Source: Patescibacteria group bacterium (GTDB taxonomy: Bacteria > Patescibacteriota > Patescibacteriia > Buchananbacterales > UBA6539). From it: 64,000 nt of DNA. The position numbers and the translations under genes were made by a program. A model generated the notes under the pieces. The model saw nothing but the letters and a program-made list of their open reading frames with translations, did not search any database and was not told the DNA's origin. The DNA is taken from assembly GCA_041662625.1 (NCBI GenBank), contig JBAZSB010000002.1:12024-76023 (forward strand). Direction: 5' to 3'. Position 1 is the stretch's first letter; the number at the start of each line of letters is the position of its first letter. This document shows positions 9,779-64,000 of the stretch, one piece after another.

Positions 9779-12700
9779 TTACGGCCCCAGATCCCGGTAC
9801 TTCAGCGAGTAGCTGCAACTGCTGCCCACGGAGTAGGCCCGGATGCGGAGGTAATACCAGCCGGTACTGTTTGGTTTATAGGTGAAGCTGAACTGAAGAT
9901 TACCACCGCTGTCATCGTTGTAGGCAACGCGGACAGTGCCGGCAGAATTGGAGTACAGCTCACCGTAGTCATCGCCAATGCCGCCAGTTGTGTTGAAATT
10001 GTAGCGGCGGCCGCTTACCAGATACACTCTGAACCAGTCGTAGCGATCGGCGCTCGACAAGGTGTGGGGTCCGTGGGCCTGTTCCGTAGCCGTCGGGTTA
10101 TTCAACACTGTGGAACCGGAAACAATGTTGTCAGCCGGATCCCAAGCATCATTGGCAGGCGGTGGCGGTATGACGGCCAAATCCCGGTACTTCAGCGAGT
10201 AGCTACAATTACTACCTACTGAGGAGGCCCGGATACGGAGGTAATACCAGCCGCTGACTGTCGGCGCATAGGTAAAACTGAACTGCAGGTTACCACCACT
10301 GTCGTCATTGTAAGCGACGCGAGTGGTACCCGTTGCATTGGAGTACAACTCGGCGTAATCATTACCGGTCCCGCCAGTTGTGTTGAAATTGTAGCGACGG
10401 CCGCTTACCAGATACACCCTGAACCAGTCGTAGCGATCCATATTGGAAAGCGTATGTGGTCCATGGTTCTGCTCTGCAGTGGTCGGGTTGTTTAGCACTG
10501 TGGCGCTGGAGACAATCCCGTCAGCCGGATCCCAGGCGTCGATAATAGGTGTTGGAATAGTAGTAATATTCGACTCCAGCACCGTACCATCAACTTTATC
10601 CTGCAGGATAATGAACACTTGGGGTGGTGGCGCTTGGCCTAAGGGCACAGCAAACCAAATCCTGGTCAGGTCAGAGGCTTTACCAAGAGCACAGAAGCCG
10701 TAGATCCGACGTCGACTGCCGTCTGGTTTTGCCTCATAGATCTCAACCCAGGTTCGAGCGGCACTGGTGTTAAGGCCGCAAGTCACACAGTAGGCTGAAC
10801 TGAAAATCCGGTCAGGATATTCAGCCCAGTTACTGATTGACAAGAGATAGCGGGTCCAGTTACCACTGGAGGTGCTGTATTCTTCACTGCCAATGATGGT
10901 GAGCTGAGGAATTGGAACCAACTCCAAAGGCGAAATCACCTCAAAGGTAACGCCTCCTTCATTGTTGCTTTCATCCTCCTCGCTCACCTCGCTGTCACAG
11001 TCAGCATAAGCGCGCCAAGTGAAAATCCCGGAGCTGTCACAATGATCCAGATCAAAAATCACTTCCGCTGTCTGGCCAGAAGCCAGGGCCGGCAGGCGTT
11101 GCTTCAGGAAAAAATTGTTCCAGGTCAAGCCAACATTGAAAGCTGGCGCATCAACCGGACCAATATTTCCTGCCACAATAGTTACCTTGATCGGATCACC
11201 AGTCCAGGGATCAAGAGGATCGACTGAACAGTTCATGATGACGCAGTCAGCTCGCCGCGGTGGCAGGACTGTCACTGAAGCGCTTGCGGAGTTGTCGCCT
11301 TCGTTGCTTTCGGCCACAACATTGCCACTGTCAACGACCGCAGTCACCGTCTGTGTCCCTTCAGCTGTCAGATTGAAATTGACACTGAAAGGCACACTGC
11401 CACCCGCGGGAATCGCCGGCAGGTCAACAGTTGCTGTCTGCCCGCTGAAACTGATGGCCAGTTGGCAGACGCCAGAGGCCTCATTGCCACTGTTAGACAT
11501 TACACCCGAAACCGTGGCTGTTCCGCCAACTCGCAGTTCAGCCGGGCTGACTGAAAGGTTTGCAAGTGTCAGGTTAGGTTGAGCCGGCGGCGGCAAAGCT
11601 TGGATGATTGTCGATTCAGAGTTATCACCTTCGTTATACTCAGCAATAACCCCGGTTGAATCAACATAAGCATCCACCTTATAGCTGCCTTCGGCCTGTA
11701 TCCCGAGGTTGAAGGTGTGGTAATACACTCCGCCGTGAGACAAGCCGTCGATCTCAATGGCTTGACTGCTCTGGCCGGCAATGCCGACCGTCAGCACAAA
11801 CGGCGTATTGATGTTCACGTCGCCATCATTAATGATCCCAACCTGAATGCAAAGAGGATCACCAGTATGAACTTCGGCTGTTGCCAGTTCAAGTGATACA
11901 AACTTCAACTGGGCTTTTAGATCGGCTTCGTTAATAACCTTGAAACCGACTTTGACTTGGCAACCTTCAGCCGCCTGATTGATGACGTGCCAAACGTCGT
12001 TAATCCGAACGCAGGCAACCAGATAGTAGTCACCGGGTTCAGTCGAGACGTAGCTGCTGCCGACACTGCCGCTTTTCGTCTGACCCGGTTGTAAAGTTAC
12101 GGGCGTCGACATGTAGCTGGAGAAATCAACCCAGACGTTTTCGGGCAACCGGTAGGGGAAAAGCGACGGGCCTTGGTAGGTCACCACTTGGTCAGTCGGA
12201 TTTTCCACGGTGTAAGTTATCCTGGGACAAACATAGGGCAAATACGGCCCAGTGCTATCCTCGGTTAACCCAGCGACCAGCCTAAGCGGCGCTTCGGGAA
12301 AAGGCGGTTGAGGCGGTGGTTCGGGGTCAGGCAGCTTTTCCACGACAGTCACGGTCACTCTCTCTGACTGAATCGACCGGTCGTCGTAAAGCTCAATCCA
12401 TGTTTCTGCCGTACCGATGTTATTGGCAATGATGTAGCCATTGTCACCGGAGATGACAAAGACACTTGGGCTAGACGAAATGAAAAGCACTTGCACCCCA
12501 GTCATCTCATTGCCGTACTGGTCAAACACTTGAGCCGTGGCCCAGCCGTCCGTGGCATACTGCCAAGTAGTTTGCGTCAGATTGATCCGCAACGTTGTTG
12601 GCGTGGGTGCCGGTGTTGGCGGGGGCGGGGGTGTAGCTTCGGTTGTCACTGTCACCTCGTTGCTCCAACCAAAAACCAGCTCGCTGGCCGTAACTGCTGC

Positions 12701-14176
12701 CAGCTGATAGGTGCAGCTATGGCTTGGCTCCAATGGATAATCAGTCCACTGAGTAAAGCCACTGACCAGTTTGGCAATCTTTACCCCGTCACGAAACAGC
12801 CAGAGAAATGGCGCATACGGGTAGGCCGTGTTTTGCCACTGGAGGAACGCCGAGTTGTAGCCATCAGCAGTACCTTGCAGGGTAAAGCTGCCGGGATTTC
12901 CCGGGCCAGTAATGGTCACGATATTGGAGACATCAAGCGCGCCAGTACTATTGGACATGGCAAAGACTTGATATTGCCGTGTGCTGCCTGTTGGTAGGCC
13001 TGCTTCAGTGAATTCCCGAAGTGTGGTCTGGCCGATTTCAGTGCCGTTGGCAAACACGGCGTAGTAGTCGCATGTTGGACCACCTTCAATCCAAATAGTG
13101 TTGTGGTTTTCTGACATCGGTTTGCCGGTCAGAGTTAGGGCACTGAATTCACCGGTTGGCTCAAACACTTCAACCAGTGTACCGTCCAGACGGTGAAGTT
13201 CTACGCTGCCTGATTTGCAGTACCCGTTTTGGAAACACTGCTGGCCGTTAATGAAGTCACTGGTCGGACAGCCTAACACTGTTCCATCGTCCATCGGCAT
13301 ATCCGGACCATAGCGCTGGCAACCGCGAGTGTTGTCCCAACGACCGTAGCGGTAGAACTCCCAATACTTGCCGGGGATCAGGTAGGCCTGACTGCCAAAA
13401 AGCGGATCATAGATGATGATCGACTCTTCACCTCGGGCGTTGCGGAAGTTCTGGCAGAGGTAGCGGAACGGAGCCCAGTTATGGACAAAGATTCCGTCAC
13501 CGTCATCGATTGGCCAACCTACGCCATCCAAACCACCGTGGCGGTTGTAGCAGTTATTGATTTGTCGATCAATCGCTTGACCATCAGCAAACCGACCAAT
13601 GACCGAAAAACCAGGATAGTGTAACCAGCCTTTGACGAAGTAGTTAGTACTAAGTCGTTCTCCCGGCTCTACTTTCCAAGTGCCATCAGCGTTCTGACTC
13701 ATTGGCAACAGACGGAATGGCTTGGTGGAATTATTGATGTTTTGTTCAAACACCTCAATTCCATCCCTCATCACCCGTGAAACAATACCGACGTGGCCAG
13801 AACCACTATCGCAGGATGTCCAACCGTTATTCCACCAAATGATAAAGTCGCCAATCTGGGGCGGTACCACACTGCTATCGTTGGAAACAGCATGGTAACC
13901 CAACCTCTCCGGCAACCGCAACCACATATTGGCTGCACATCCGACTTCGTAGTCAATCACCTTATGGTACGCGGCAGCGAATCTCTTGGCCAAGTTAACA
14001 CACTGGTATTCCGCTTGGCTGGCCGTACAAGGCTTCTCGGTGCAGTCACCATTAGAATACGCGGTGACTCCCATGAAAGAGCCAATTTCGCGTCCGTAGT
14101 CCGGACCACAGTCGTTCGGGCACTGACCTGACGCCACTGTCGCCACAAACATAACCACACAAAATATCGTTCTCAT
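9779..14176 (-). CDS. Giant secreted cell-wall hydrolase-like surface protein: signal peptide - CHAP domain - Ig-like/CARDB repeats - Pro-rich linkers - two C-terminal PPC (pre-peptidase C-terminal) domains
   Basis: Start moved to MRTIFCVVMFVATVASG (RBS GGAGGT 9 nt upstream). The CHAP motif has a Cys near YQCVNLAKRF and a His at SGSGHVGIV. NEGDNSxST repeats are CARDB-like, linked by PPPPTPAPTPT. The two C-terminal ~130-aa units (AWDPAD...RYDWFRVYL...YNDDSGGN...YYLRIRA) are PPC-like. GC is ~57% in an AT-rich backbone. Confidence 0.75.
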   Translation of the reverse strand: MRTIFCVVMFVATVASGQCPNDCGPDYGREIGSFMGVTAYSNGDCTEKPCTASQAEYQCVNLAKRFAAAYHKVIDYEVGCAANMWLRLPERLGYHAVSNDSSVVPPQIGDFIIWWNNGWTSCDSGSGHVGIVSRVMRDGIEVFEQNINNSTKPFRLLPMSQNADGTWKVEPGERLSTNYFVKGWLHYPGFSVIGRFADGQAIDRQINNCYNRHGGLDGVGWPIDDGDGIFVHNWAPFRYLCQNFRNARGEESIIIYDPLFGSQAYLIPGKYWEFYRYGRWDNTRGCQRYGPDMPMDDGTVLGCPTSDFINGQQCFQNGYCKSGSVELHRLDGTLVEVFEPTGEFSALTLTGKPMSENHNTIWIEGGPTCDYYAVFANGTEIGQTTLREFTEAGLPTGSTRQYQVFAMSNSTGALDVSNIVTITGPGNPGSFTLQGTADGYNSAFLQWQNTAYPYAPFLWLFRDGVKIAKLVSGFTQWTDYPLEPSHSCTYQLAAVTASELVFGWSNEVTVTTEATPPPPPTPAPTPTTLRINLTQTTWQYATDGWATAQVFDQYGNEMTGVQVLFISSSPSVFVISGDNGYIIANNIGTAETWIELYDDRSIQSERVTVTVVEKLPDPEPPPQPPFPEAPLRLVAGLTEDSTGPYLPYVCPRITYTVENPTDQVVTYQGPSLFPYRLPENVWVDFSSYMSTPVTLQPGQTKSGSVGSSYVSTEPGDYYLVACVRINDVWHVINQAAEGCQVKVGFKVINEADLKAQLKFVSLELATAEVHTGDPLCIQVGIINDGDVNINTPFVLTVGIAGQSSQAIEIDGLSHGGVYYHTFNLGIQAEGSYKVDAYVDSTGVIAEYNEGDNSESTIIQALPPPAQPNLTLANLSVSPAELRVGGTATVSGVMSNSGNEASGVCQLAISFSGQTATVDLPAIPAGGSVPFSVNFNLTAEGTQTVTAVVDSGNVVAESNEGDNSASASVTVLPPRRADCVIMNCSVDPLDPWTGDPIKVTIVAGNIGPVDAPAFNVGLTWNNFFLKQRLPALASGQTAEVIFDLDHCDSSGIFTWRAYADCDSEVSEEDESNNEGGVTFEVISPLELVPIPQLTIIGSEEYSTSSGNWTRYLLSISNWAEYPDRIFSSAYCVTCGLNTSAARTWVEIYEAKPDGSRRRIYGFCALGKASDLTRIWFAVPLGQAPPPQVFIILQDKVDGTVLESNITTIPTPIIDAWDPADGIVSSATVLNNPTTAEQNHGPHTLSNMDRYDWFRVYLVSGRRYNFNTTGGTGNDYAELYSNATGTTRVAYNDDSGGNLQFSFTYAPTVSGWYYLRIRASSVGSNCSYSLKYRDLAVIPPPPANDAWDPADNIVSGSTVLNNPTATEQAHGPHTLSSADRYDWFRVYLVSGRRYNFNTTGGIGDDYGELYSNSAGTVRVAYNDDSGGNLQFSFTYKPNSTGWYYLRIRAYSVGSSCSYSLKYRDLGP
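9790..10565. repeat. Tandem duplication of ~390 bp (2 units, ~88% identical) encoding the two PPC domains
   Basis: 9790-10175 versus 10180-10565 share long identical runs, for example cccggtacttcagcgagtagct...ggaggtaataccagcc...gccagttgtgttgaaattgtagcg.cggccgcttaccagatacac.ctgaaccagtcgtagcgatc. Confidence 0.85.
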
Positions 14177-14231
14177 TTCTCGATACCTCCATATTGTCAA
14201 AGGTCTATGGTATTTCTCTTCTACTCACATC

Positions 14232-55499: not shown

Positions 55500-56831
55500 T
55501 TAATAATTATAATTGCTATCTTTTAACTTTTTCAATTCTTCTCTAACAATTGCCCGGTCATCCCAGGGAATATTTTTATCCCCAACCACCATGGCTTGCT
55601 CACAACCCTTACCGGTAATCAAAACTAAATCATCAGGCCCAGCTAAACTCAAGGCTTTAGAAATTGCTTCCCGGCGATCTAAAATTTTAAATAAATTTTG
55701 ATTAATGATTTTGCCCTCTTCAATTGCTCCGGCCGCGACCTGATCAATAATGGTTTGCGGATCGTCATCATAGGGATCTTCATTAGTGACAATTACCAAA
55801 TCAGCTTTTTGGCCAGCCAACTGGCCAAGTTTGGGTCGGCGGGCAATATCCCTTCCGCCACCGGTTGAACCTAAAACCTGAATCACTTTCTGATGCGGAA
55901 TTAATTTAACAATATCATAGAGAGCACCAACCGCCTTTGGTTCATAAGCATAGTCAACAATTATTTTAAACGCTTGGCCTTCACTAATAAATTCAATGCG
56001 ACCCGGTATCCCCTCAATTGTCCCAAGGCTTTTAGCCATACTGGCCAAACTTAAACCTTGCGATAAACCAATGGTGATAGCGGCTAAAGAATTATAAATA
56101 TTATGTTGGCCAAAAAGTTTAAACTCAAAAATTTGACGGTCGATGACAAACTCAATGCCATCGGCTGTAACTTTTTGATTTTCTGCCCGAATGACTCGGC
56201 CCTGATTGGTGGACTTATTAGTCAGAGTAAAAACTAATTTTTCTTCCGCCCAATTATTTAAAAAGTCATTAACATTTTCATCGTCCAAATTTGCAATGAT
56301 AGTCTTTTTAATTTTTTGACCACTAATTAATTTTGGTGAATCATTTTTAAGCTTTTTAAATAATTTTAATTTAGCATTTTTATAGTTAGCAAACCCACCA
56401 TGGGCCTCGATATGCTCCGGGTATAAATTAGTAAAAACTAAAATATCATAATTAATACCTAAATGGCGAAATTGCTCAATGCCCTGGGAAGTCGTTTCAA
56501 TCACCGCATACTGACAATTGAATTTGACCATCTGCTTAATTAATTTCTGCAAAGCCAACCGGCCAACCATTGTCATCTTTTTATTATTCAGCCACTCTTT
56601 TCTATCCACCTGAAAAAAGAAAGTTGAAGCCGCCCCCACTTTATAACCGGCTTTTTCTAAAATTTTAGTAATCAAATAAACGACACTTGATTTGCCCGAA
56701 GTTCCGGTAACACCAATCACAATGAGTTTATCAGACGGTGAACCATAAAAAAAATTAGCGGCAATTGCCAGAGTATAATGGTAAGCCTTAATGAAAGGTT
56801 TAGGAATTATTTTACGCAGAAAAGTTAACAT
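55500..56831 (-). CDS. Mur ligase family protein, MurE-like UDP-N-acetylmuramoyl-tripeptide ligase
   Basis: P-loop VIGVTGTSGKSS, the central domain, and the C-terminal GKGCEQAMVVGDKNIPWDDRAIVREEL matching the Mur C-terminal block (GKGHE.yQ...k.pF.Dre.vreaL). Confidence 0.65.
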   Translation of the reverse strand: MLTFLRKIIPKPFIKAYHYTLAIAANFFYGSPSDKLIVIGVTGTSGKSSVVYLITKILEKAGYKVGAASTFFFQVDRKEWLNNKKMTMVGRLALQKLIKQMVKFNCQYAVIETTSQGIEQFRHLGINYDILVFTNLYPEHIEAHGGFANYKNAKLKLFKKLKNDSPKLISGQKIKKTIIANLDDENVNDFLNNWAEEKLVFTLTNKSTNQGRVIRAENQKVTADGIEFVIDRQIFEFKLFGQHNIYNSLAAITIGLSQGLSLASMAKSLGTIEGIPGRIEFISEGQAFKIIVDYAYEPKAVGALYDIVKLIPHQKVIQVLGSTGGGRDIARRPKLGQLAGQKADLVIVTNEDPYDDDPQTIIDQVAAGAIEEGKIINQNLFKILDRREAISKALSLAGPDDLVLITGKGCEQAMVVGDKNIPWDDRAIVREELKKLKDSNYNY

Positions 56832-56846
56832 AGAAAATTATGTATT

Positions 56847-56910
56847 AAGAATTATAAATTCAGAATTGTCACCCTGAATTTATTTCAGAATCTCTGAATT
56901 TATAATTCTT
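56847..56910. repeat. Perfect 18-bp inverted repeat (AAGAATTATAAATTCAGA) enclosing a REP-like arm (copy 3 of the family)
   Basis: aagaattataaattcagaa TTGTCACCCTGAATTTATTTCAGAATC tctgaatttataattctt. Confidence 0.7.
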
Positions 56911-57056
56911 GGTTGCTACTACAATTCTACCACCTTGATAGTCTTTCCGGCAAACTAGGCAGGTTTTAGATCTGACCAAAAATACTTTGCTTTTTAGGCC
57001 ATTTTCTAGCCTAATTAAACCCTTTTCTGACTTATTAACTTATCCCCTGCCTCATC

Positions 57057-57116
57057 TTGACAGGGGTTTTTGTTTTAAGGTATACTATCAATATATTGAT
57101 ATCAATATATTGATAG
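57057..57116 (+). promoter_or_regulatory. Sigma70-type promoter (TTGACA-18-TATACT) with an overlapping double palindromic operator
   Basis: ttgaca ggggtttttgttttaagg tatact followed by CTATCAATATATTGATA TCAATATATTGATAG. The 18-mer CTATCAATATATTGATAG is self-complementary and is present as two overlapping copies. Confidence 0.65.
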
Positions 57117-57131
57117 AGCAGGGGACCATGA

Positions 57132-57344
57132 ATGCGCATTAATGCCAAAAAATTAGGCAAAAACATCAAAAACAAACGGCTAAGAAAAGGCATCTCACAA
57201 GAGATGCTGGCCCGAGCCGCTAATTTGAAGCTCTCTAATTTAGCGAAATTAGAGGGCGGTTTTAATTCTAATCCAACTTTAGAAACACTGGCTAGTATTG
57301 CCGGTGTTTTAACTAACGGGAGTATCGATGCCTTGGTTAGATAG
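57132..57344 (+). CDS. XRE-family helix-turn-helix transcriptional regulator
   Basis: KNKRLRKGISQEMLARAANLKLSNLAKLEGG matches the HTH_3 pattern; 70 aa. Confidence 0.8.
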   Translation: MRINAKKLGKNIKNKRLRKGISQEMLARAANLKLSNLAKLEGGFNSNPTLETLASIAGVLTNGSIDALVR

Positions 57345-60300
57345 AAAAAGACTACTAAAATCTAGACTGGAAAACCTCCGGGAGGCAGGTAAGTTCTTGG
57401 GGTTGTCAATTTTATCTATCATTTTGGTTTTGTTTATCTTAGGCTGGGTCGCTTATGCTTTCCAAGCTTCGGCGGCAACCGGCATCAATTCTCAACTCAA
57501 CTACCAAGGTAAACTTAACGACAGTAGTGGCGTAGCAGTAAGTGACGGGACCTACAACATTAAACTGGCAATTTATGCTGCCAGTAGTGGTGGGACCTGT
57601 CTTTGGACTGCAGTTGGATCTTGCGCTGATGGCAATGTGGCAACAACCACAGTTACCACAGTCAACGGAGTCTTTTCGGTAACTTTGGGTGGATCGGGCC
57701 AAAATTCGTTAGCCACTTCAACGATTGCTACTGTTTACAAATGGAATACTGATAGTTTGTATTTAGGAGTGACGATTCGAGGCACGACTGCTTCTCCTGT
57801 CTACGATGAAGAAATGACGCCAAGAAAGAGAATTACTTCGTCAGCTTATGCTTTCAATGCTGATTTGGTGGATGGGATCAGTGCGACTTCAACTGCTGCT
57901 GTGGCCAACGAACTTTTAGCTTTAGATGCTTTTGGTAATTTGAATTTGTTTAATCAAGGGGTATCGAGTACTTATGCCACGACCAGCTGGTTATTGGTTA
58001 GAGAAAGCTCAACGATGAAAGAACTTAATGCCACTTCAACTAACGTTGATAATTTAACAGTGTTTAATACTGGGACCTTTAACTGGCTGTCAGCCACGAC
58101 ATCGTTAGACTACTGGTTTAATGCTTCGTCGACTTTGGGTAGCTGGGATTATTTAAAGATGAAACCAGCCACTTCCACCGTCTTAAGCTTGCTTGATTCG
58201 GATTATCGGATTTCAACTTTGAATGCGACGAGCACTCTGACTGACCACAGCACGACAACCGGCAACTTATATACCGGCAGACTTTGTTTTGCCAACGGCA
58301 ACTGCTATGACGATATCACCACCATTTTAAGCGGCGTCGAGTTCTTCTTACATGAAGATGATTCCGATGTGGTGGGCTACGAAAAGCTGTTGCGCGATCC
58401 GGCCAGTGGCGCTCAGACCACTGATTTCTGTAATGCGGAAGACAGCCTTTATTGCGCGATTGATGAATATGTCACGGAAACTGACGATCTTAATACGACC
58501 GTTATTCCTTCAGGAACCTGGTCGTTTCATACTTTTATCAATATTGATTCTAATACGGGCGTGTCAAATATGGTGATTAGGGTTTATGCCCGAACCGCCG
58601 GCGGGGCGGAAACCCAGCTGTTTAGCGCCACTTCCACCGAGTTGACTACCGGGCTTAAAGAATACCAGATCAGTACGGTCCAGTCTGAATTCAATATTAA
58701 TACTACCGATCGCTTGGTCGTCAAATACTTGGGCTGGTCTACCTCAGCCGCCGCCCGAACCATCACCTTATATTATGAAGGCACGGCTAATTATTCTCAT
58801 TTAGTGACACCCTTTACCGTGGTTGATTTAGGTTCTTATGTCCAACGCAATATCAATGAGACAATTACGGCTAATTGGATTTACAATTCATTGACAACTT
58901 TTTCTGATTTACGAGCTACGACTTTGAATGCCACGACGACTAATGTTGATAATCTCAAAGTCTTGAATACGGGTACCTTTAACTGGTTATCGGCCACTTC
59001 ATCTTTAGATTACTGGTTTAATGCATCATCGACCTTAGCTTCTGGTTTGAGCCAGTGGTACTACCCCTGGACTGGGGCCATTACGCCAACCAGTTCAGTT
59101 GGTATATTTGTTAATGCGTCCTCAACGATTGCGGCTAACTTTAGGGTGGATGGGAATGCGACGACAACTGGCCACTTTGAAGCGGATTCCAATTTCTATG
59201 TCAAAGACGGCATGGTTAGTATCGGTATAGAGCCAGGGATATTTGCCGGAGCATCTACTTTCATCAACTATGAAACCTGGACAGGAAATACTGGCACTCT
59301 TATCAGCAATAATTTTATATCTACCTTCAGCCCAACAACTAATTCTAATTCTTTGAACGTTGGTATAAATAATGATGCAACTGGCAATGGCACAGAACAC
59401 CAGACTTATATTGCCGGTTATCTTGGTACCACTAATTATGAAGGTACGGCTAGTCTAGAAAATCTAATTGGCCTGCAATCAACTGCTGAATTAGCCAATG
59501 CTGGAAGCGTGACCAGTACGGTAGCAATTGGCGGTCTGATTAATAATGGCATAGCTGATACTGATGGGGGCGGAGATATGACCAATGCTTATGTTTTTAA
59601 CAGCGCTTTTACCATCGGCACCCAGGCCGGAACTATTGCCAATGCCTATATGTATAATAGCAATGGATTTGTACTAAATGGTGGCACAATTACTAACGCT
59701 TACGGGTTAAATTTGGAAACACCAGCCTACAATGGTGGCACAATTACTAATTTGTATGGCATCTATATTGATAACCAAACTGGTGCTACCAATAACTATG
59801 CAATTTATACCAATACGGGTAACGTCAGATTTGGTGATGACTTATTAGTGGTGGGTAATGCCACGACTTCCGGTTACTTGGTTGTAGGCACAACTAACCC
59901 CACCACCAATTTGGGTGCCGGTGACTTGTTGGTGGGTAGAAATGCGACCACAACCAACCATTTTGAAGCTGATTCTACTTTTTATGTCAAAGAAGGACAA
60001 GTTGGCATTGCTACATCAACACCTTGGGCAACCTATGAATTAGCCGTGAATGGTGAGGCGATAATCACTGGCGATACTTTAATTAATAATGATTTGTATG
60101 TTGCTGAAAGCTATGCAGCTGATGGCGCCAACGGCAATCTATTTTTAGGCAGAAACGTCGGTAATTGGGAAAGCTTAATTTGGAACGTATCCAACAATCA
60201 ATTTGAGCTTTCGGATGAGTTAGCAGTTACAGGTAACCTTTATGTCTCTGGCTATGCCAGTACTACTAACTTGGTTTTAGGCAATGATGGGTCAAACCTC

Positions 60301-63300
60301 GGGACTTATGCTGACTTGTACGTTAATTCTGGAAACTTATTCTTTAATGGGACTCAGTTGACTGGTTCTTCTGGACTTTCTTTCTGGCAGTATAATCCCG
60401 GCTTGAGTAATAGTACCTATAAGGCGATTTCGCCAACTTCGACTGACATTGGTATTTTTGTCACGGCGTCTTCGACGATTGCCGCTAACTTCAGAGTGGA
60501 TGGGAATGCGACGACAACGGGTAATACTTCTTTACAAGGTACTTTATATGTTAAAGATGGTAACGTCGGCATTGGGACATCAACACCACAACAAGAATTA
60601 TTTGTCAATAATTCAACGGGTGAAGCTGATATTGTAATGAGTAGTGCGCTTAATAATGATGTTAATCTTAGATGGACTATTGAAGGAAAAAATAAATTTA
60701 ATATCTTTTATGATGCTAGTGATGGTGATTTGGCTTTTTATGATAACGTGGGTGTAGCTCAAAGAATGACGATTGATACAACTGGCAATGTCGGTATTGG
60801 CACGACTGCCCCGGGAGATCTATTAAGTGTTAATGGCAAAACTTTCTTGGGTGGCAATGCTTCGACGACTGGGACATTAGTTGTCAATGCTCAATCAGGT
60901 TATACTGGCTGGGCCGCACCAACCAACACTTTCACTGTCGTTGGCTCAGGGTTGTTTACCGGTAATGCCACGACTTCGGGTAACTTTACCGCTCAAAATA
61001 CTTTGTATGTTAAAGATGACAATGTCGGCATTGGGACGGCGAGCCCAAGAGCAAAATTAGAAGTAAAAAGTGCAGGAACTATAGTTACTTTCCCCGCTGG
61101 AACGCAAGATTTAATTATTGATAATTATTCAGCCGCAGCGGCCTCAGAAGCAGCAATTTTATTAGGTGGTTCGGGGACAGGCGGATATGGTATCTATTCA
61201 AAAATTTTACAGACTAATAATGGCAATTTTGGTTCTCTTCAATTTCAGTCAAGGGCTGATGCCGCAGGGACTGGCTGGACAACACGAATGACAATTGACG
61301 CTACCGCTGGCAATGTCGGTATTGGTTTAACCGCTCCCGGGTATAAACTTGATGTCTTAGGTACAGCTTCAACCACTGATTTATACGTTGGCGGTAATTT
61401 GGCCCGGACTTCGACTTCTACTAATATCTATGGCGGCATGATTGTTGATACTGATACTTTGGTGGTTAATGCCAATGAGAACCGGGTGGGAATTGGGACG
61501 GCGAGTCCGGCATATCCATTAGATATTTACACTGCAAGCGGCGACGCTAATTTGAGAGTTAAATCAAATACTGATGACGCCAACATCTCTCTTACTTCAA
61601 ACGGTGATGGAGTTGGTACCGAGAAAAGTCAAATAACATTTATAGATAATGTGACCTCAAAATGGACTATTGGTAAAAGCGATGATAACAATTTCTTATT
61701 ATATGATTACACTCGTGGAAGCACAATTTTTAGAGCTTATGCTAACGGGAATTTAGCGTTAATGGAGAACGGTGGCAATGTCGGTATTGGCACGACTGCC
61801 CCGGGAGATCTATTAAGTGTTAATGGCAAAACTTTCTTGGGTGGCAATGCTTCGACGACTGGGACATTAGTCGTCAACGCTCAATCAGGCTATTCTGGCT
61901 GGGCCGCACCAACCAACACTTTAACCGTGGTTGGGTCCGGTTACTTTACTACTAATTTGAGAGTATCAGGCAACGCCACGACTTCGGGTAACCTTAATGT
62001 CTCTGGCTATGCTTCAACTACTAACTTAGTCCTAGCTGACGGGGCGTCTAACCTAGGAACTTACTCTGATTTGTATGTTAATTCTGGGAATCTATTCTTT
62101 AATGGTACCCAGTTAACTGGCTCTAATGGTTTGGCTTTCTGGCAGTATAATCCCGGCTTGAGTAATAGTACCTATAAGGCGATTTCGCCAACTTCAACTG
62201 ACATTGGTTTCTTTGTTAATGCTTCTTCAACGGTGGCGGCAAACTTCCGGGTGGATGGGAATGCGACGACGACTGGCAATACTACCTTACAAAATACTTT
62301 GTATGTTAAAGATAGTAGCGTCGGGATTGGGACAACTGATTTAACTGACTACAAATCAAGTGGCAATAATTATTCCAGTGAATTAGTTGTAGATTTAGCT
62401 AGCACAGTAACTACTTGGAATACTGCTCAATCTCAACTTACACTAAGAAATTCCAATACGACGGCTAACAACTGGTCTGGACTCGCTTTTGCATCCAACG
62501 ACGGCACAAATACTGCTTATGGTGCTGCCATAGCCGCTCAATTCACAGACAGGACAGCTGGCGGCTGGACGAGCGCTGAACTAGCATTTTTTACTGGTAC
62601 TAAAGGAGCGGCTCCTTTGGAAAGAATGAGAATAGACAAAAGTGGCAATGTCGGGATTGGACTTACCCCAGTTGCTGGAAGAAAACTCCAGGTTACATCT
62701 GGTGCTTCAGAGCATCCTCTTTGGCTCCAGACAGCTGATCGGTGGGGTGGGTTAACATTATCTGATACAGCTGACAATATTATGATGTATGTCTATCCAG
62801 ATGATGCTGATTTGGGTGGAACAATACTTAACCTTCGTGATGCTGGAACTACAAAAGTAATGATAGATACTGATGGTGATACTTATTTCAATGGCGGCAA
62901 TGTCGGGATTGGGACGACTATACCTTTGACAAAATTGCAAGTTGGAGTTGATAATGCGGGAGAGGCATTATCAATGGGTTCACTTGTGCCACAAGTGGCG
63001 ATAATGGGAGCGCAAAATAATACATCAGAAGATAGTATTTTGAGATTAATAAGGCCTACTTATTCAGGTAATTTATATCCTGCATCAGTTGATTTTAAAA
63101 TGAGCACTTGGAATTCACTTGGTTGTGTTAATGGTTGTGCATCTAGAACCAAACTTACAATTGGGTTAAAAGATGGCACTTTATACGACACCAGTAATGT
63201 TGCGGATATTATGACATTATTATCAAGTGGTAATGTCGGTATTGGCACGACTGCCCCTTACTACAAGCTTGAAGTTTCAGCGCCAACTGCTACTACCACT

Positions 63301-64000
63301 TTGTATGTGGTGGGCAATACCAGATTAGAAGGCAATGCCACCACTACTGGTAATGTCTACCTTGGCACTAATCAAAATAACTTTGTCCGGTTAGAAGATG
63401 GCCAGGTTGACTCTCTTAGTCTAGCACCTGCTACTTCGACGGTTTTAATTTTTGATAGTCAAGCTTATTGGTCTGATGACAGTACTTATTTAGACGGCCA
63501 AACTTTATTATCAAACAAAGGTACTAATCATCCATATTTTTCTATAGATATGACTTATAGTGAAATGGTGGCAGGTCCAGTCGTAACCAGTAAAGATGTA
63601 TTTTCAGTAATGCATACTAGCAGTGGCGATAGTGTTGGTATTGGTTTAGAAAATGGTGCTAATAGTGATTTAATTTGGTTTGATACTTGGGGTACGTATC
63701 AACAAGGAAGACAAGGAACTCAATATTTTGGCTGGCTAGATACCCTAAATGAATTTTATCTAACGAATAATTTTGCTATTTCTGGCAATGCCACCACCAC
63801 CGGCTGGCTGACGGTTGGAATAGTCTCTCCGGCTCGGACTTGGGCAACGGGTGATGCCAGTATCGGCAACCGCCTCTTAGTGGATGAAGACATTTATGTT
63901 GGTGAATCTGCTAGTAATGATGATGATTCCATATTCTTTGATGCCGGTAATGAATCTATCGTCTGGGATGATAGCCCAGGAGAATTTGACTTTAGCGATG
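57328..64000 (+). CDS. Partial giant secreted, repeat-rich surface protein (>2,200 aa in window) with tail-fibre-like 'GNVGIGTTAP / GNATTTG...LYVKDG' beta-helix repeats; N-terminal signal/anchor; continues past the window end
   Basis: Frame established by hand: ATG at 57328 (MPWLDRKRLLKSRLENLREAGKFLGLSILSIILVLFILGWVAYAFQASAATGINSQ...) overlaps the XRE stop by 17 nt. The frame stays open through sampled blocks to 64000. No complete ORFs >=60 aa occur on the + strand over 6.6 kb in the track (expected when the long frame has no stop in the window). Internal DNA repeats: 60238-60575 ~ 61997-62335; 60781-60960 ~ 61781-61960; 58020-58140 ~ 58930-59050. Confidence 0.6.
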   Translation, partial: MPWLDRKRLLKSRLENLREAGKFLGLSILSIILVLFILGWVAYAFQASAATGINSQLNYQGKLNDSSGVAVSDGTYNIKLAIYAASSGGTCLWTAVGSCADGNVATTTVTTVNGVFSVTLGGSGQNSLATSTIATVYKWNTDSLYLGVTIRGTTASPVYDEEMTPRKRITSSAYAFNADLVDGISATSTAAVANELLALDAFGNLNLFNQGVSSTYATTSWLLVRESSTMKELNATSTNVDNLTVFNTGTFNWLSATTSLDYWFNASSTLGSWDYLKMKPATSTVLSLLDSDYRISTLNATSTLTDHSTTTGNLYTGRLCFANGNCYDDITTILSGVEFFLHEDDSDVVGYEKLLRDPASGAQTTDFCNAEDSLYCAIDEYVTETDDLNTTVIPSGTWSFHTFINIDSNTGVSNMVIRVYARTAGGAETQLFSATSTELTTGLKEYQISTVQSEFNINTTDRLVVKYLGWSTSAAARTITLYYEGTANYSHLVTPFTVVDLGSYVQRNINETITANWIYNSLTTFSDLRATTLNATTTNVDNLKVLNTGTFNWLSATSSLDYWFNASSTLASGLSQWYYPWTGAITPTSSVGIFVNASSTIAANFRVDGNATTTGHFEADSNFYVKDGMVSIGIEPGIFAGASTFINYETWTGNTGTLISNNFISTFSPTTNSNSLNVGINNDATGNGTEHQTYIAGYLGTTNYEGTASLENLIGLQSTAELANAGSVTSTVAIGGLINNGIADTDGGGDMTNAYVFNSAFTIGTQAGTIANAYMYNSNGFVLNGGTITNAYGLNLETPAYNGGTITNLYGIYIDNQTGATNNYAIYTNTGNVRFGDDLLVVGNATTSGYLVVGTTNPTTNLGAGDLLVGRNATTTNHFEADSTFYVKEGQVGIATSTPWATYELAVNGEAIITGDTLINNDLYVAESYAADGANGNLFLGRNVGNWESLIWNVSNNQFELSDELAVTGNLYVSGYASTTNLVLGNDGSNLGTYADLYVNSGNLFFNGTQLTGSSGLSFWQYNPGLSNSTYKAISPTSTDIGIFVTASSTIAANFRVDGNATTTGNTSLQGTLYVKDGNVGIGTSTPQQELFVNNSTGEADIVMSSALNNDVNLRWTIEGKNKFNIFYDASDGDLAFYDNVGVAQRMTIDTTGNVGIGTTAPGDLLSVNGKTFLGGNASTTGTLVVNAQSGYTGWAAPTNTFTVVGSGLFTGNATTSGNFTAQNTLYVKDDNVGIGTASPRAKLEVKSAGTIVTFPAGTQDLIIDNYSAAAASEAAILLGGSGTGGYGIYSKILQTNNGNFGSLQFQSRADAAGTGWTTRMTIDATAGNVGIGLTAPGYKLDVLGTASTTDLYVGGNLARTSTSTNIYGGMIVDTDTLVVNANENRVGIGTASPAYPLDIYTASGDANLRVKSNTDDANISLTSNGDGVGTEKSQITFIDNVTSKWTIGKSDDNNFLLYDYTRGSTIFRAYANGNLALMENGGNVGIGTTAPGDLLSVNGKTFLGGNASTTGTLVVNAQSGYSGWAAPTNTLTVVGSGYFTTNLRVSGNATTSGNLNVSGYASTTNLVLADGASNLGTYSDLYVNSGNLFFNGTQLTGSNGLAFWQYNPGLSNSTYKAISPTSTDIGFFVNASSTVAANFRVDGNATTTGNTTLQNTLYVKDSSVGIGTTDLTDYKSSGNNYSSELVVDLASTVTTWNTAQSQLTLRNSNTTANNWSGLAFASNDGTNTAYGAAIAAQFTDRTAGGWTSAELAFFTGTKGAAPLERMRIDKSGNVGIGLTPVAGRKLQVTSGASEHPLWLQTADRWGGLTLSDTADNIMMYVYPDDADLGGTILNLRDAGTTKVMIDTDGDTYFNGGNVGIGTTIPLTKLQVGVDNAGEALSMGSLVPQVAIMGAQNNTSEDSILRLIRPTYSGNLYPASVDFKMSTWNSLGCVNGCASRTKLTIGLKDGTLYDTSNVADIMTLLSSGNVGIGTTAPYYKLEVSAPTATTTLYVVGNTRLEGNATTTGNVYLGTNQNNFVRLEDGQVDSLSLAPATSTVLIFDSQAYWSDDSTYLDGQTLLSNKGTNHPYFSIDMTYSEMVAGPVVTSKDVFSVMHTSSGDSVGIGLENGANSDLIWFDTWGTYQQGRQGTQYFGWLDTLNEFYLTNNFAISGNATTTGWLTVGIVSPARTWATGDASIGNRLLVDEDIYVGESASNDDDSIFFDAGNESIVWDDSPGEFDFSD

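What the first reader, a model, noticed from the sequence alone, without database searches (positions are those of the whole stretch)
57040..64000. Unannotated >6.6-kb open frame: XRE repressor with a perfect double-palindrome operator, overlapping a giant tail-fibre-like repeat protein
The ORF track shows nothing on the + strand after 57344. The reason is that a single frame is open from the ATG at 57328 to the window end, so it has no in-window stop. Its N-terminus is a signal/anchor (FLGLSILSIILVLFILGWVAYAFQASAA). Downstream are dozens of degenerate ~60-100-aa repeats with the motifs GN(A/V)TT(T/S)G, (L/F)YVKDGNVGIGT(T/S)TP and AANFRVDGNATTTG, which recur in phage tail-fibre and bacterial beta-helical adhesin proteins. 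Three long near-identical DNA blocks recur inside the gene. The 70-aa XRE gene immediately upstream overlaps it by 17 nt, so the two are probably co-transcribed. The shared promoter TTGACA-18-TATACT is followed directly by the 32-bp element CTATCAATATATTGATATCAATATATTGATAG, which is two overlapping copies of a self-complementary 18-mer, an unusually clean candidate autoregulatory operator. A giant, recombinogenic, repressor-controlled surface fibre in a small-genome (possibly episymbiotic) bacterium is a plausible host-attachment or phase-variable adhesin locus.
Basis: partly seen in the sequence, partly recalled or inferred. Interest (0 to 1): 0.7.

Follow-up and report, generated by a model that had tools for sequence, protein, structure and literature searches.

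The report
Self-repressed giant surface fibre operon
A tiny, probably host-dependent bacterium (Patescibacteria) encodes a 2,779-residue phage-tail-fibre-like surface fibre of the kind the predator Bdellovibrio uses to grip prey, behind a small repressor gene whose DNA-binding site is conserved across relatives; the fibre is a good host-attachment candidate, but both parts belong to known families.

Summary
The sequence observation holds. The frame from ATG 57328 is open to the window end. The XRE gene overlaps it by 17 nt. A near-consensus promoter is followed by a perfect 32-bp palindrome.

"Unannotated" is an artefact of ORF lists that drop genes running off the window. The full protein (2,779 aa) is in GenBank as a Patescibacteria "tail fiber domain-containing protein".

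It has the hallmarks of Bdellovibrio mosaic adhesive trimer (MAT) fibres:
- a signal/anchor followed by a MAT_N-like domain;
- a shaft with 7 exact (11-13 loose) capping-loop motifs, homologous to the Bd3182 beta-helix;
- an S74 chaperone/protease domain with the SDxxxK motif.

It differs in being about three times longer and in carrying a conserved module after S74.

The neighbours are core genes (rpoBC, Mur ligase), so this is not a prophage.

Comparative data support the operator. The 16-mer TATCAATATATTGATA lies upstream of all 33 XRE orthologues of at least 58% identity, roughly 190-380-fold enriched. In about 23 of these the next gene is such a fibre.

Best reading: a negatively autoregulated XRE-fibre operon. 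"Dozens" of repeats, "near-identical" blocks and phase variation are overstated or unsupported.

Verdict: new variant of a known kind, moderate interest.

The parts
57057..57086 (+). Sigma-70-type promoter: -35 TTGACA (57057-57062), 18-nt spacer, -10 TATACT (57081-57086)
   Evidence: 11 of 12 consensus positions. Both hexamers are kept while the spacer varies in orthologous loci L006, L082, L083, L085, L086, L088, L091 and L093.
57085..57116 (.). Operator: perfect 32-bp palindrome made of two 16-bp palindromes TATCAATATATTGATA (57086-57101 and 57100-57115). It starts inside the -10 hexamer and covers the expected transcription start.
   Evidence: The exact 16-mer occurs in 15 of 118 fetched loci, and every one of those loci carries an XRE orthologue. 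Sites with up to 3 mismatches number 66 in the 7.6 kb upstream of XREs, against 17 in 367 kb elsewhere in those loci. The operator is 31/32 conserved in L006, where the flanks are 70-75% identical.
57132..57344 (+). XRE-family (HTH_3) regulator, 70 aa, HTH domain only. Shine-Dalgarno-like AGGGGA at 57120-57125.
   Evidence: Pfam HTH_3 E 2e-9. (GenBank MFA6255337.1). (nearest solved relatives are SinR, the ComR DNA-binding domain, C.BclI and 434 repressor, all at E about 1e-3).
57230..57257 (+). Conserved 12-bp-stem hairpin inside the XRE coding region, followed by GGTTTTAATT. Its role is unknown (candidate attenuator or processing site).
   Evidence: terminator-like site. (-15 kcal/mol, z -3.9). 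(93.6% of cells paired in 26 orthologues; two synonymous-site pairs switch CG<->UA in 8 sequences each; 0 of 500 shuffles reach the observed value).
57328..64000 (+). First 2224 codons of a 2779-aa MAT-like (phage-tail-fibre-like) surface fibre gene. It runs off the window; the stop is predicted about 1.67 kb beyond the window end. Shine-Dalgarno-like GGGAG at 57318-57322.
   Evidence: P0001 is 100% identical over the whole in-window part. (GenBank MFA6255338.1). (PHROG tail fibre families, E 1e-15 and 1.5e-9).
57394..57462 (+). N-terminal hydrophobic segment (aa 23-45), followed by ASA|A: either a signal peptide or a membrane anchor
   Evidence: the only strongly hydrophobic stretch. (helix aa 3-44). 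An Ala-rich motif immediately before the conserved domain appears in the family consensus.
57478..57837 (+). MAT_N-like beta-rich domain (aa ~51-170). The conserved N-module extends to aa ~230 (58017).
   Evidence: NCBIfam NF053851 Bdello_MAT_N at E 3e-5 for this protein and in 27 of 28 family members (best 2e-12); the window protein scores 23.8 bits, below the 60-bit cutoff; beta domain with pLDDT 85-93; this is the most conserved part across homologues.
58138..58926 (+). Cys-containing, non-repetitive (probably globular) insert (aa ~271-533) flanked by 110-nt direct repeats at 58027-58136 and 58927-59036. Fold not determined.
   Evidence: D7, 81% identity. (sequence). Homologue P0003 matches aa 1-314 and 514-1222, so it appears to lack the insert.
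59131..63657 (+). Fibre shaft (aa ~602-2110): irregular modules carrying GNATTTG and (N)VGIGTxxP...L capping-loop motifs
   Evidence: 7 exact and 11-13 loose capping-loop motifs. One search gives the consensus capping-loop motif of MAT/S74 fibres from PMC10769870.
60982..61374 (+). Segment (aa 1219-1349) with sequence homology to the crystallised trimeric beta-helix of Bdellovibrio MAT protein Bd3182 (PDB 8OJN)
   Evidence: E 1.8e-4, aligned across both capping loops. (8OJN is Bd3182 residues 632-922).
60232..62286 (+). Region holding the long dispersed in-frame direct repeats: 60232-60531/61987-62286 (82%) and 60783-60966/61773-61956 (92%)
   Evidence: The longest exact stretches are 99 nt (spacing 990 nt) and 61 nt (spacing 1755 nt).

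Best explanation
This is a chromosomal two-gene operon of a Patescibacteria (CPR) bacterium.

**Regulator.** Gene 1 encodes a 70-residue, HTH-only XRE protein. It most likely binds as dimers to two adjacent 16-bp palindromes (TATCAATATATTGATA, 14-bp period). These start inside the -10 hexamer of a near-consensus sigma-70 promoter and cover the expected transcription start. Bound protein would block RNA polymerase, which is negative autoregulation.

**Fibre.** Gene 2 overlaps gene 1 by 17 nt, has its own Shine-Dalgarno sequence, and has no promoter-like site in between. The repressor would therefore set the level of both products. Gene 2 encodes a 2,779-residue exported protein built like the mosaic adhesive trimer (MAT) fibres of Bdellovibrio, in this order:
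- a signal peptide or anchor;
- a MAT_N-like beta-rich base domain;
- a long mosaic shaft of beta-helix modules bounded by VGIGTxxP...L capping loops;
- a peptidase-S74 intramolecular chaperone/protease with an SDGRFK motif, which in characterised relatives drives trimerisation and then cuts itself off.

The mature product is inferred to be a trimeric fibre on the cell surface. Scaling from the Bd3182 and Bd2133 dimensions suggests roughly 90-100 nm. Its inferred role is recognition of the surface of a partner or host cell.

**Shown versus inferred.** Shown: domain content, conservation of the operator, the gene pairing, and the chromosomal context. Inferred: repression itself, co-transcription, trimerisation and self-cleavage, and the adhesive role.
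For: **Gene and family**
- The frame is open and the full-length protein is known.
- Pfam Peptidase_S74 scores 32.3 bits against a cutoff of 22 at aa 2314-2376. The SDGRFK motif starts at aa 2314.
- A profile of the C-module hits the S74 chaperones of phage tail fibres (6f45 at 2e-9, 8jov) and of MyRF (7dc3).
- Bdello_MAT_N matches 27 of 28 family N-termini.
- 8OJN (Bd3182 beta-helix) matches at E 2e-4.
- Capping-loop motifs: 7 exact, 11-13 loose.
- PHROG tail-fibre families match.
- The family is widespread in Patescibacteria: 209 confirmed loci in GTDB representative genomes.

**Not a phage**
- The neighbours are a Mur ligase, rpoB, rpoC, FtsK and RecA.
- The same synteny is seen in L006.
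- No relative of the N-module was found in 2.9 million viral contigs.

**Regulation**
- Promoter and palindrome.
- All 33 XRE orthologues of at least 58% identity carry at least one operator-like site within 200 nt upstream, while the surrounding DNA is unalignable.
- Every locus holding the exact 16-mer carries an XRE orthologue.
- About 23 of the 33 have a MAT_N-type fibre gene as the next ORF.
- A second XRE-fibre cassette sits in the same assembly, as adjacent accessions MFA6255438/439.
Against: - No experiment supports binding, repression or co-transcription.
- The NCBIfam MAT_N hit is far below the curated cutoff (23.8 against 60 bits), so formal family membership fails at that threshold.
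- The N-domain model has only generic Ig/fn3-like structural matches. The library that holds the Bdellovibrio models (afdb50) was unavailable.
- Unlike S74 MATs, which end in the chaperone, this protein has about 360 further conserved residues after the chaperone: two Ig-like sandwiches and Cys-pair repeats. Self-cleavage would release them, and the model does not explain that.
- It is undecided whether the N-terminus is cleaved or acts as an anchor.
- A conserved hairpin inside the XRE gene may reduce read-through into the fibre gene.
- In more distant orthologous loci, gaps of 120-430 nt separate XRE and fibre, which leaves room for separate promoters.
- Only 1 of about 79 fibre loci in representative genomes has this XRE.
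Confidence: 0.65

Rival explanations
1. The giant gene is a prophage, tailocin or contractile-injection-system tail fibre, and the XRE is the element's CI/Cro-like repressor.
For: - PHROG tail-fibre families match, there is an S74 chaperone as in phage T5 and K1F fibres, and GenBank names it 'tail fiber domain-containing'.
- XRE, and the HTH_17 regulators found at sister loci, are typical of mobile elements.
Against: - The upstream flank is core genes (Mur ligase, rpoB, rpoC, FtsK, RecA), and the same order is kept in a genome 25-30% diverged at the nucleotide level.
- The protein has an N-terminal signal or anchor, which I would not expect in a virion fibre (own knowledge).
- No relative of the N-module was found in IMG/VR.
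- Downstream neighbours at sister loci are heterogeneous cellular genes.
- The DNA downstream of this particular gene was not seen.
Confidence: 0.05
2. It is a real surface fibre, but its job is not partner-cell recognition. Alternatives are a structural coat or spacer, a cell-cell aggregation factor, or a decoy or shield against phages.
For: - No receptor-binding tip could be assigned. The C-module gives only generic Ig-like matches and the insert at aa 271-533 is unassigned.
- Fibre genes often sit among other large surface-protein genes (fn3, CarboxypepD_reg, Laminin_G_3).
Against: - The closest characterised relatives, Bdellovibrio MATs, sit on the predator surface, and one binds prey glycans (PMC10769870).
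- The architecture is mosaic and highly variable between conserved ends, and there are several paralogues per genome. From general knowledge, that pattern is typical of receptor-binding proteins under diversifying pressure.
Confidence: 0.2
3. The XRE regulates only itself (or activates transcription), and the fibre gene is controlled independently. Examples would be termination at the intragenic hairpin or an internal promoter. The adjacency would then reflect inheritance as a cassette rather than shared repression.
For: - There is a conserved hairpin followed by a U-rich stretch inside the XRE gene, with compensatory changes.
- Gaps of 120-430 nt separate XRE and fibre in more distant loci.
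- About 10 of 33 XRE orthologues precede other genes.
Against: - In the window and its closest relatives the genes overlap or lie 2-7 nt apart.
- No + strand promoter-like site was found between 57132 and 57328.
- The operator covers -10 and +1 of a near-consensus promoter that should need no activator.
- The U-tract of the hairpin is weak: 4 U here and 3 U in L109.
Confidence: 0.15
4. The locus is a phase- or length-variable adhesin, with expression or structure switching by recombination between the internal repeats.
For: - There are exact in-frame direct repeats of 99 nt (990 nt apart) and 61 nt (1755 nt apart).
- recA is present in the window.
- A paralogue in the same assembly shares 94% of the N-module and 87% of the compared C-terminal stretch but only 57-76% in the middle.
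Against: - There are no tandem arrays or simple-sequence tracts in the promoter or gene.
- I did not search specifically for an invertible promoter, a recombinase or a retroelement; none turned up in the genes I scanned.
- No variant allele was observed. The only other copy of the locus found (L099) is 99.93% identical and ends before the fibre gene.
Confidence: 0.1

Closest known systems
Bdellovibrio bacteriovorus mosaic adhesive trimer (MAT) fibres, S74 subgroup, e.g. Bd3182 (Caulton et al. 2024, PMC10769870; PDB 8OJN/8ONB/8ONC)
   Same: - The order of parts: export signal, conserved beta-rich N-domain, trimeric beta-helix shaft with VG(I/V)GTxxPxxxL capping loops, then an S74 chaperone/protease with SDxxxK.
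- Conserved ends with a mosaic middle, and several paralogues per genome.
- The organism lives on other cells.
   Different: - About 2.8 times longer (2779 against about 1000 aa).
- Patescibacteria are thought to lack an outer membrane (own knowledge).
- The N-domain scores far below the NCBIfam cutoff (23.8 against 60 bits).
- S74 is not terminal: a conserved module of about 360 aa follows it.
- A dedicated small HTH regulator gene sits directly upstream. I saw no mention of such a gene in the passages of the MAT paper that I searched.
- The paper's text and supplements do not mention Patescibacteria, Parcubacteria or 'candidate division' in a term search.
Phage tail fibres and tailspikes with a C-terminal intramolecular chaperone (peptidase S74): T5 pb1 L-shaped fibre, K1F endosialidase, S16 long tail fibre (PDB 6f45)
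   Same: S74 domain with the Ser-Lys motif, a beta-helical fibre with capping loops, and PHROG tail-fibre profile matches.
   Different: - Chromosomal gene among core genes.
- N-terminal signal or anchor and a MAT_N domain, which are cellular rather than viral features: no relative in IMG/VR.
- No virion-attachment domain was detected.
Small autoregulatory XRE repressors with tandem palindromic operators: phage 434 Cro/CI, SinR, and restriction-modification controller (C) proteins such as C.BclI
   Same: - An HTH_3 protein of about 70 aa.
- Weak sequence similarity to SinR, C.BclI and 434 repressor.
- Two adjacent dyad-symmetric sites at its own promoter.
- The regulator is the first gene and is tightly coupled to the gene it would control, as C proteins are with their endonuclease gene (own knowledge).
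   Different: - No close characterised relative (best E about 5e-4).
- Both sites lie downstream of -35 and over -10/+1, so pure repression is expected rather than the activate-then-repress logic of C proteins.
- The controlled gene is a giant surface fibre, not a nuclease or a lysis/lysogeny module.
- There is no sensor or oligomerisation domain, so the inducing signal is unknown.

Membership tests
MAT (mosaic adhesive trimer) superfamily | Signal peptide at the N-terminus | tested here: inconclusive
   There is a positively charged N-region, then a 23-residue hydrophobic stretch, then ASA|A, and an Ala-rich motif before the domain appears in the family consensus. No signal-peptide predictor was available, and the long hydrophobic region would also fit an uncleaved anchor.
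MAT (mosaic adhesive trimer) superfamily | Conserved beta-rich domain of about 130 aa directly after the signal peptide | tested here: inconclusive
   NCBIfam NF053851 Bdello_MAT_N matches aa 44-138 at E 3e-5 (23.8 bits), which fails the 60-bit cutoff. It also matches 27 of 28 family members (best E 2e-12). AlphaFold gives a confident beta domain at aa 57-170. The structural comparison with Bdellovibrio models could not be run because afdb50 was unavailable. This supports homology at superfamily level, not membership by the curated threshold.
MAT (mosaic adhesive trimer) superfamily | Beta-helix shaft with capping-loop motif (V-G-...-P-x-x-x-L) | tested here: met
   There are 7 exact matches to VG.[GN][TSAG]..P...L and 11-13 looser ones. 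aa 1219-1349 align to the Bd3182 beta-helix (8OJN) at E 1.8e-4, across both capping loops. The motif is as described in PMC10769870.
MAT (mosaic adhesive trimer) superfamily | Intertwined trimer located on the cell surface | not testable with these tools
   Only monomer prediction was available, and no localisation data exist.
Peptidase S74 intramolecular chaperone (PF13884) | Domain match above the curated threshold | tested here: met
   Pfam scores 32.3 bits against a cutoff of 22 at aa 2314-2376. A profile of the C-module hits the 6f45 and 8jov tail-fibre chaperones and MyRF 7dc3.
Peptidase S74 intramolecular chaperone (PF13884) | Catalytic SDxxxK (Ser-Lys) motif | tested here: met
   SDGRFK at aa 2314-2319 is the only SDxxxK in the protein. 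The Ser and Lys columns are invariant in the 12-sequence C-module alignment (S25 and K30 of A2).
Peptidase S74 intramolecular chaperone (PF13884) | Chaperone forms the extreme C-terminus and is released by self-cleavage | tested here: not met
   About 360 conserved residues follow the chaperone (aa ~2420-2779): a linker, two Ig-like sandwiches and 2-3 Cys-pair repeats. Cleavage itself cannot be tested here.
XRE / HTH_3 transcriptional regulators | Cro/C1-type helix-turn-helix domain | tested here: met
   Pfam HTH_3 at E 2.3e-9, 37.6 bits against a cutoff of 23.
XRE / HTH_3 transcriptional regulators | Binds a dyad-symmetric operator at its own promoter (autoregulation) | tested here: inconclusive
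   Comparative evidence only. The operator motif co-occurs with the orthologues and is absent from more distant XREs. Binding was not tested.
Restriction-modification controller (C) proteins | Precedes and controls a restriction endonuclease gene, with a C-box operator | tested here: not met
   The downstream gene is the fibre. The similarity to C.BclI is weak (E 4e-3). The operator sequence is unlike the GACT/AGTC C-boxes (own knowledge).

The most novel reading that the evidence does not exclude
Giant MAT-like, S74-matured fibres are the host-recognition organelles of many non-Saccharibacteria Patescibacteria. They are carried as self-contained cassettes of 'small HTH regulator plus fibre'. 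The regulator has been replaced non-orthologously (XRE here; HTH_17 or MerR-like at about a quarter of sister loci). Near-identical regulators at paralogous cassettes would couple their expression. A conserved hairpin inside the regulator gene would set the regulator-to-fibre ratio. The mosaic shafts would be reshuffled by recombination to change host range.
Probability: 0.3. Interest if true: 0.75.

Novelty: new variant of a known kind. Interest (0 to 1): 0.5.

Why it matters
How ultrasmall, host-dependent Patescibacteria find and hold their hosts is largely unknown outside Saccharibacteria, where type IV pili and some unnamed adhesins have been implicated (PMC10633639; PMC12206443).

This locus gives concrete, testable candidates:
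- a family of very long tail-fibre-like surface proteins, homologous to the prey-handling fibres of Bdellovibrio and present in at least 209 loci of representative genomes;
- a defined repressor-operator pair that could be tested in vitro or used as a genetic switch.

It also extends the MAT superfamily to a phylum thought to lack an outer membrane, and shows an S74 domain followed by a conserved extra module.

The individual parts (XRE autorepressor, S74 tail-fibre-like protein) are known kinds, and GenBank's automatic annotation already names both.

Tried and rejected
**Searches that led nowhere**
- Exact-protein look-ups for the XRE, P0001 and P0002 all returned 'not on record'. The rest of the source contig, including what lies downstream of the fibre gene, was therefore not seen.
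- The source MAG is not a GTDB representative; the best locus has 65% identity in the N-module.
- The afdb50 Foldseek library was unavailable, so the N-domain could not be compared with Bdellovibrio MAT models.
- The C-module model was weak overall (pLDDT 57.7). Its two confident domains gave only generic cadherin/Ig hits. My guess of an H-type lectin fold from the sequence pattern was not supported.
- Pfam finds nothing in the 2224 in-window residues.
- Rfam has no family for the leader or the intragenic hairpin.
- TRF finds no tandem array in the gene.
- No further operator site with 2 or fewer mismatches exists in the 64-kb window.
- Literature searches found no paper linking Patescibacteria to tail-fibre-like, S74 or MAT proteins.

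**Ideas considered and rejected**
- Prophage origin, because of the core-gene synteny.
- Toxin-antitoxin or restriction-modification controller roles for the XRE, because of the downstream gene.
- GC3 drift as the sole cause of the hairpin covariation. The two covarying pairs are in opposite GC states within single sequences.


Full report
**Observation.** Translating 57328-64000 gives 2224 codons without a stop. The ORF lister shows no long + strand ORF after 57344 only because it omits ORFs that run off the source. The 70-aa ORF at 57132-57344 is an HTH_3/XRE protein (Pfam E 2e-9, above the cutoff), and it overlaps the ATG at 57328 by 17 nt. The promoter TTGACA-18-TATACT (57057-57086) matches 11 of 12 consensus positions. 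Starting inside the -10 hexamer, 57085-57116 is a perfect 32-bp palindrome. More exactly it is two copies of the 16-bp palindrome TATCAATATATTGATA with a 14-bp period. Both genes have plausible Shine-Dalgarno sequences, AGGGGA at 57120-57125 and GGGAG at 57318-57322. Some descriptors are overstated. The motif counts are 11 (GNATTTG-like), 13 (VGIG-like), 3 and 5, not dozens. The internal DNA repeats are 81-92% identical, not near-identical, although they hold exact cores of 99 and 61 nt.

**The full gene.** A protein search returned a 2779-aa protein that is 100% identical over the whole in-window part. It sits on a 172-kb contig and is named in GenBank 'MAG: tail fiber domain-containing protein [Patescibacteria group bacterium]' (MFA6255338.1). 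The XRE is MFA6255337.1. 'Unannotated' therefore reflects only the ORF track. The part beyond the window contains a Peptidase_S74 domain (32.3 bits against a cutoff of 22, aa 2314-2376) that begins with SDGRFK, the SDxxxK catalytic motif. A profile of the C-terminal module hits the intramolecular chaperones of phage tail fibres (6f45, 8jov) and of MyRF.

**What kind of fibre.** Three independent sequence links point to the mosaic adhesive trimer (MAT) fibres of Bdellovibrio (Caulton et al. 2024, PMC10769870).
- The N-terminal domain matches NCBIfam Bdello_MAT_N. The match is weak for this protein (E 3e-5, 23.8 bits against a 60-bit cutoff), but it holds in 27 of 28 family members, with a best E of 2e-12.
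- aa 1219-1349 align to the crystallised beta-helix of the S74-type MAT Bd3182 (8OJN, E 1.8e-4), across both of its capping loops.
It occurs 7 times exactly and 11-13 times loosely.

The paper defines MATs by four features: a signal peptide, a conserved beta-rich N-domain of about 130 aa, a trimeric fibre, and either an S74 end or another adhesive tip. This protein shows the same order of parts. AlphaFold models a TM-like helix at aa 3-44 and a confident beta domain at aa 57-170. That domain has only generic Ig/fn3-like matches in the PDB and in viral models, which fits the paper's remark that the MAT N-domain has no PDB homologue. The decisive comparison with Bdellovibrio models could not be run.

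**Differences from MATs.**
- The protein is about 2.8 times longer.
- The S74 chaperone is followed by a conserved module of about 360 aa. It comprises a linker, two Ig-like sandwiches (pLDDT 70-88, generic matches) and two or three Cys-pair repeats (GCTDxxAxNYNxxATxDDGSCxY). If S74 cuts as in Bd3182, this module is released. Its role is unexplained.

**Family and context.**
- Homologues of 1,400-3,000 aa share the N-module (aa 1-230) and the C-module (aa ~2310-2770), while the middle is mosaic.
- A pattern scan of one genome per species found 209 confirmed loci. Of the 80 kept, many are titled Patescibacteria lineages (Buchanan-, Falkow-, Uhr-, Magasanik-, Moranii-, Pacei-, Saccharibacteria). 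Another large share carry generic or apparently mislabelled titles such as 'uncultured Gammaproteobacteria'.
- No relative of the N-module exists in 2.9 million viral contigs.
- In the window the locus lies next to a Mur ligase, rpoB, rpoC, FtsK and RecA. The order rpoC-rpoB-Mur ligase-XRE-fibre is kept in Parcubacteria ARS52 (L006), at 70-75% nucleotide identity. This is a chromosomal gene, not a prophage.
- The same assembly holds a second cassette, with adjacent accessions MFA6255438.1 (fibre) and MFA6255439.1 (XRE, 69/70 identical). Its fibre is 94% identical in the N-module and 87% in the compared C-terminal stretch, but 57-76% in the middle.

**The regulator and its operator.** A metagenome scan with the XRE gave 38 loci.
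- In all 33 loci with an XRE of at least 58% identity, at least one site within 3 mismatches of the 16-mer lies within 200 nt upstream of the start codon. There are usually two sites and sometimes four at the 14-bp period (L093). The rest of the upstream DNA cannot be aligned.
- Site density is 66 in 7.6 kb upstream, against 17 in 367 kb elsewhere in those loci and 27 in 1.19 Mb of loci without the XRE. That is roughly a 190- to 380-fold enrichment.
- Every locus holding the exact 16-mer carries an XRE orthologue.
- XREs of 47-50% identity have other repeats upstream and other downstream genes.
- In the closest group, -35 and -10 are kept while the spacer varies, and the operator always begins in the -10 hexamer. 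In L006 the operator is 31/32 identical.

This is strong comparative evidence that the palindrome is the XRE's binding site. Its position over -10/+1 of a near-consensus promoter predicts repression by occlusion, which is an inference. The protein is an HTH domain only, with no sensor, and its nearest solved relatives (SinR, ComR DNA-binding domain, C.BclI, 434 repressor) are distant. The signal that relieves repression, if there is one, is unknown. The simplest reading is a homeostatic negative-feedback loop that caps the expression of a very costly protein.

**Linkage of regulator and fibre.** In about 23 of the 33 orthologous loci the next ORF starts with a hydrophobic segment plus the INYQGK motif of the MAT_N domain. 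In the closest ones the genes overlap or lie 2-7 nt apart. In distant ones the gaps are 120-430 nt. Seen from the fibre side, only 1 of about 79 fibre loci in representative genomes has this XRE. However, 20 others have a different small HTH gene directly upstream on the same strand. Of those 20, 16 match Pfam HTH_17 (best E 4e-16) and the rest are MerR-like. The fibres with the most similar N-modules (L001, L003, L004) have HTH_17, whereas the syntenic L006 has the XRE. The type of regulator therefore does not track N-module similarity.

**Variation.** I found no simple-sequence tract or tandem array, so classical phase variation is unsupported. I did not search specifically for invertible elements. 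Recombination between the 99-nt or 61-nt exact repeats would delete 330 or 585 residues in frame. That is possible but was not observed. The only other copy of the locus (L099, 99.93% identical) ends before the fibre.

**An unexpected extra.** A 12-bp-stem hairpin lies inside the XRE coding region at 57230-57257 (-15 kcal/mol, z -3.9), and it is conserved in 26 orthologues. Overall, 93.6% of cells pair. Two pairs formed by synonymous third positions switch CG<->UA in 8 sequences each. There are 19 double changes against 9.1 +/- 2.8 in shuffles (0 of 500 reach the observed value), and slid controls pair at only 32-58%. Within single sequences the two pairs can be in opposite GC states, so GC drift alone does not explain the pattern. 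The stated caveats of these controls still apply: the shuffles ignore relatedness, and the structure was taken from one of the sequences. The hairpin may attenuate read-through into the fibre gene or mark a processing site. This is unresolved.

**Verdict.** The locus is an XRE-controlled operon for a giant MAT-like, S74-type surface fibre of a Patescibacteria bacterium. The parts belong to known kinds and are already named by automatic annotation. What is new:
- the placement of the fibre in the MAT superfamily, in a phylum the MAT paper does not mention;
- the conserved module after S74;
- the comparative definition of the operator;
- the recurrent pairing of such fibres with small HTH regulators.

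I found no paper on tail-fibre-like or MAT proteins in Patescibacteria. Host attachment is the most likely function by analogy (about 0.45) but remains untested.

Noticed in passing
window 57230-57257 (alignment A3 columns 99-126): A conserved 12-bp-stem hairpin lies inside the XRE coding region, over the recognition-helix codons, and is followed by GGTTTTAATT. Two pairs of synonymous sites show compensatory CG<->UA changes across 26 orthologues. Its function is unknown.
   Followed up: partly
L001 9798-9971; L003 2080-2280; L004, L007, L008, L012, L014, L022, L024, L025, L040, L047, L051, L065, L074, L078; MerR-like in L005, L009, L013, L054: About a quarter of patescibacterial fibre loci have a different small one-domain HTH gene directly upstream of the fibre gene: HTH_17/excisionase-like in 16 of 20 scanned, MerR-like in the rest. 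This looks like non-orthologous replacement of the XRE.
   Followed up: partly
beyond the window: P0001 aa ~2420-2779 (alignment A2): A conserved module follows the S74 chaperone: two Ig-like beta-sandwiches and 2-3 repeats of GCTDxxAxNYNxxATxDDGSCxY, then an acidic tail. S74 self-cleavage would release it. It matches no Pfam family.
   Followed up: partly
GenBank MFA6255438.1 / MFA6255439.1 (P0002, P0041), 127,996-bp contig of the same assembly: A second XRE-fibre cassette exists in the same MAG. Its XRE differs by one residue, and its fibre shares the ends but not the middle. The two loci would be cross-regulated if the operators are alike. Its DNA was not seen.
   Followed up: partly
window 58138-58926, flanked by 58027-58136 and 58927-59036: A Cys-containing, non-repetitive insert (aa ~271-533) sits in the fibre between two 110-nt direct repeats (81% identical). 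Homologue P0003 appears to lack it. It looks like an inserted cassette and could be a binding domain.
   Followed up: no
window 56836-56907: AT-rich inverted and 14-bp direct repeats (AATTATAAATTCAGA / TCTGAATTTATAATT plus a third copy) lie just upstream of the divergently transcribed Mur ligase gene (start at 56831). This may be another operator.
   Followed up: no
window 9779-14200 (- strand): A 1473-aa protein with CHAP (cell-wall amidase/peptidase), three CARDB domains and a PPC domain. A large secreted cell-wall hydrolase would fit an epibiotic or predatory lifestyle.
   Followed up: no
L094/L095 9504 and 9518; L100 931 and 973; L101 5969 and 6011; L105 20 and 263: Further operator-like sites lie 350-500 nt upstream of some XRE orthologues, one pair again at the 14-bp period. 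This suggests extra targets or DNA looping.
   Followed up: no
L086 6802-9255; L009 (ORF after the fibre): A similar membrane protein of about 817 aa (N-terminus ...LLAQIEDLPIKPWQLLAWWYF...) follows the XRE directly in L086 and follows the fibre gene in L009. It is a possible third member of some cassettes.
   Followed up: no
L024, L026, L030, L037 (about 1000-1200 aa); L046 (1355 aa); L058, L069 (about 520 aa): Fibre genes often sit directly downstream of other large surface-protein genes (fn3 + CarboxypepD_reg; Laminin_G_3/Gly_rich). These look like surface-protein gene clusters.
   Followed up: no
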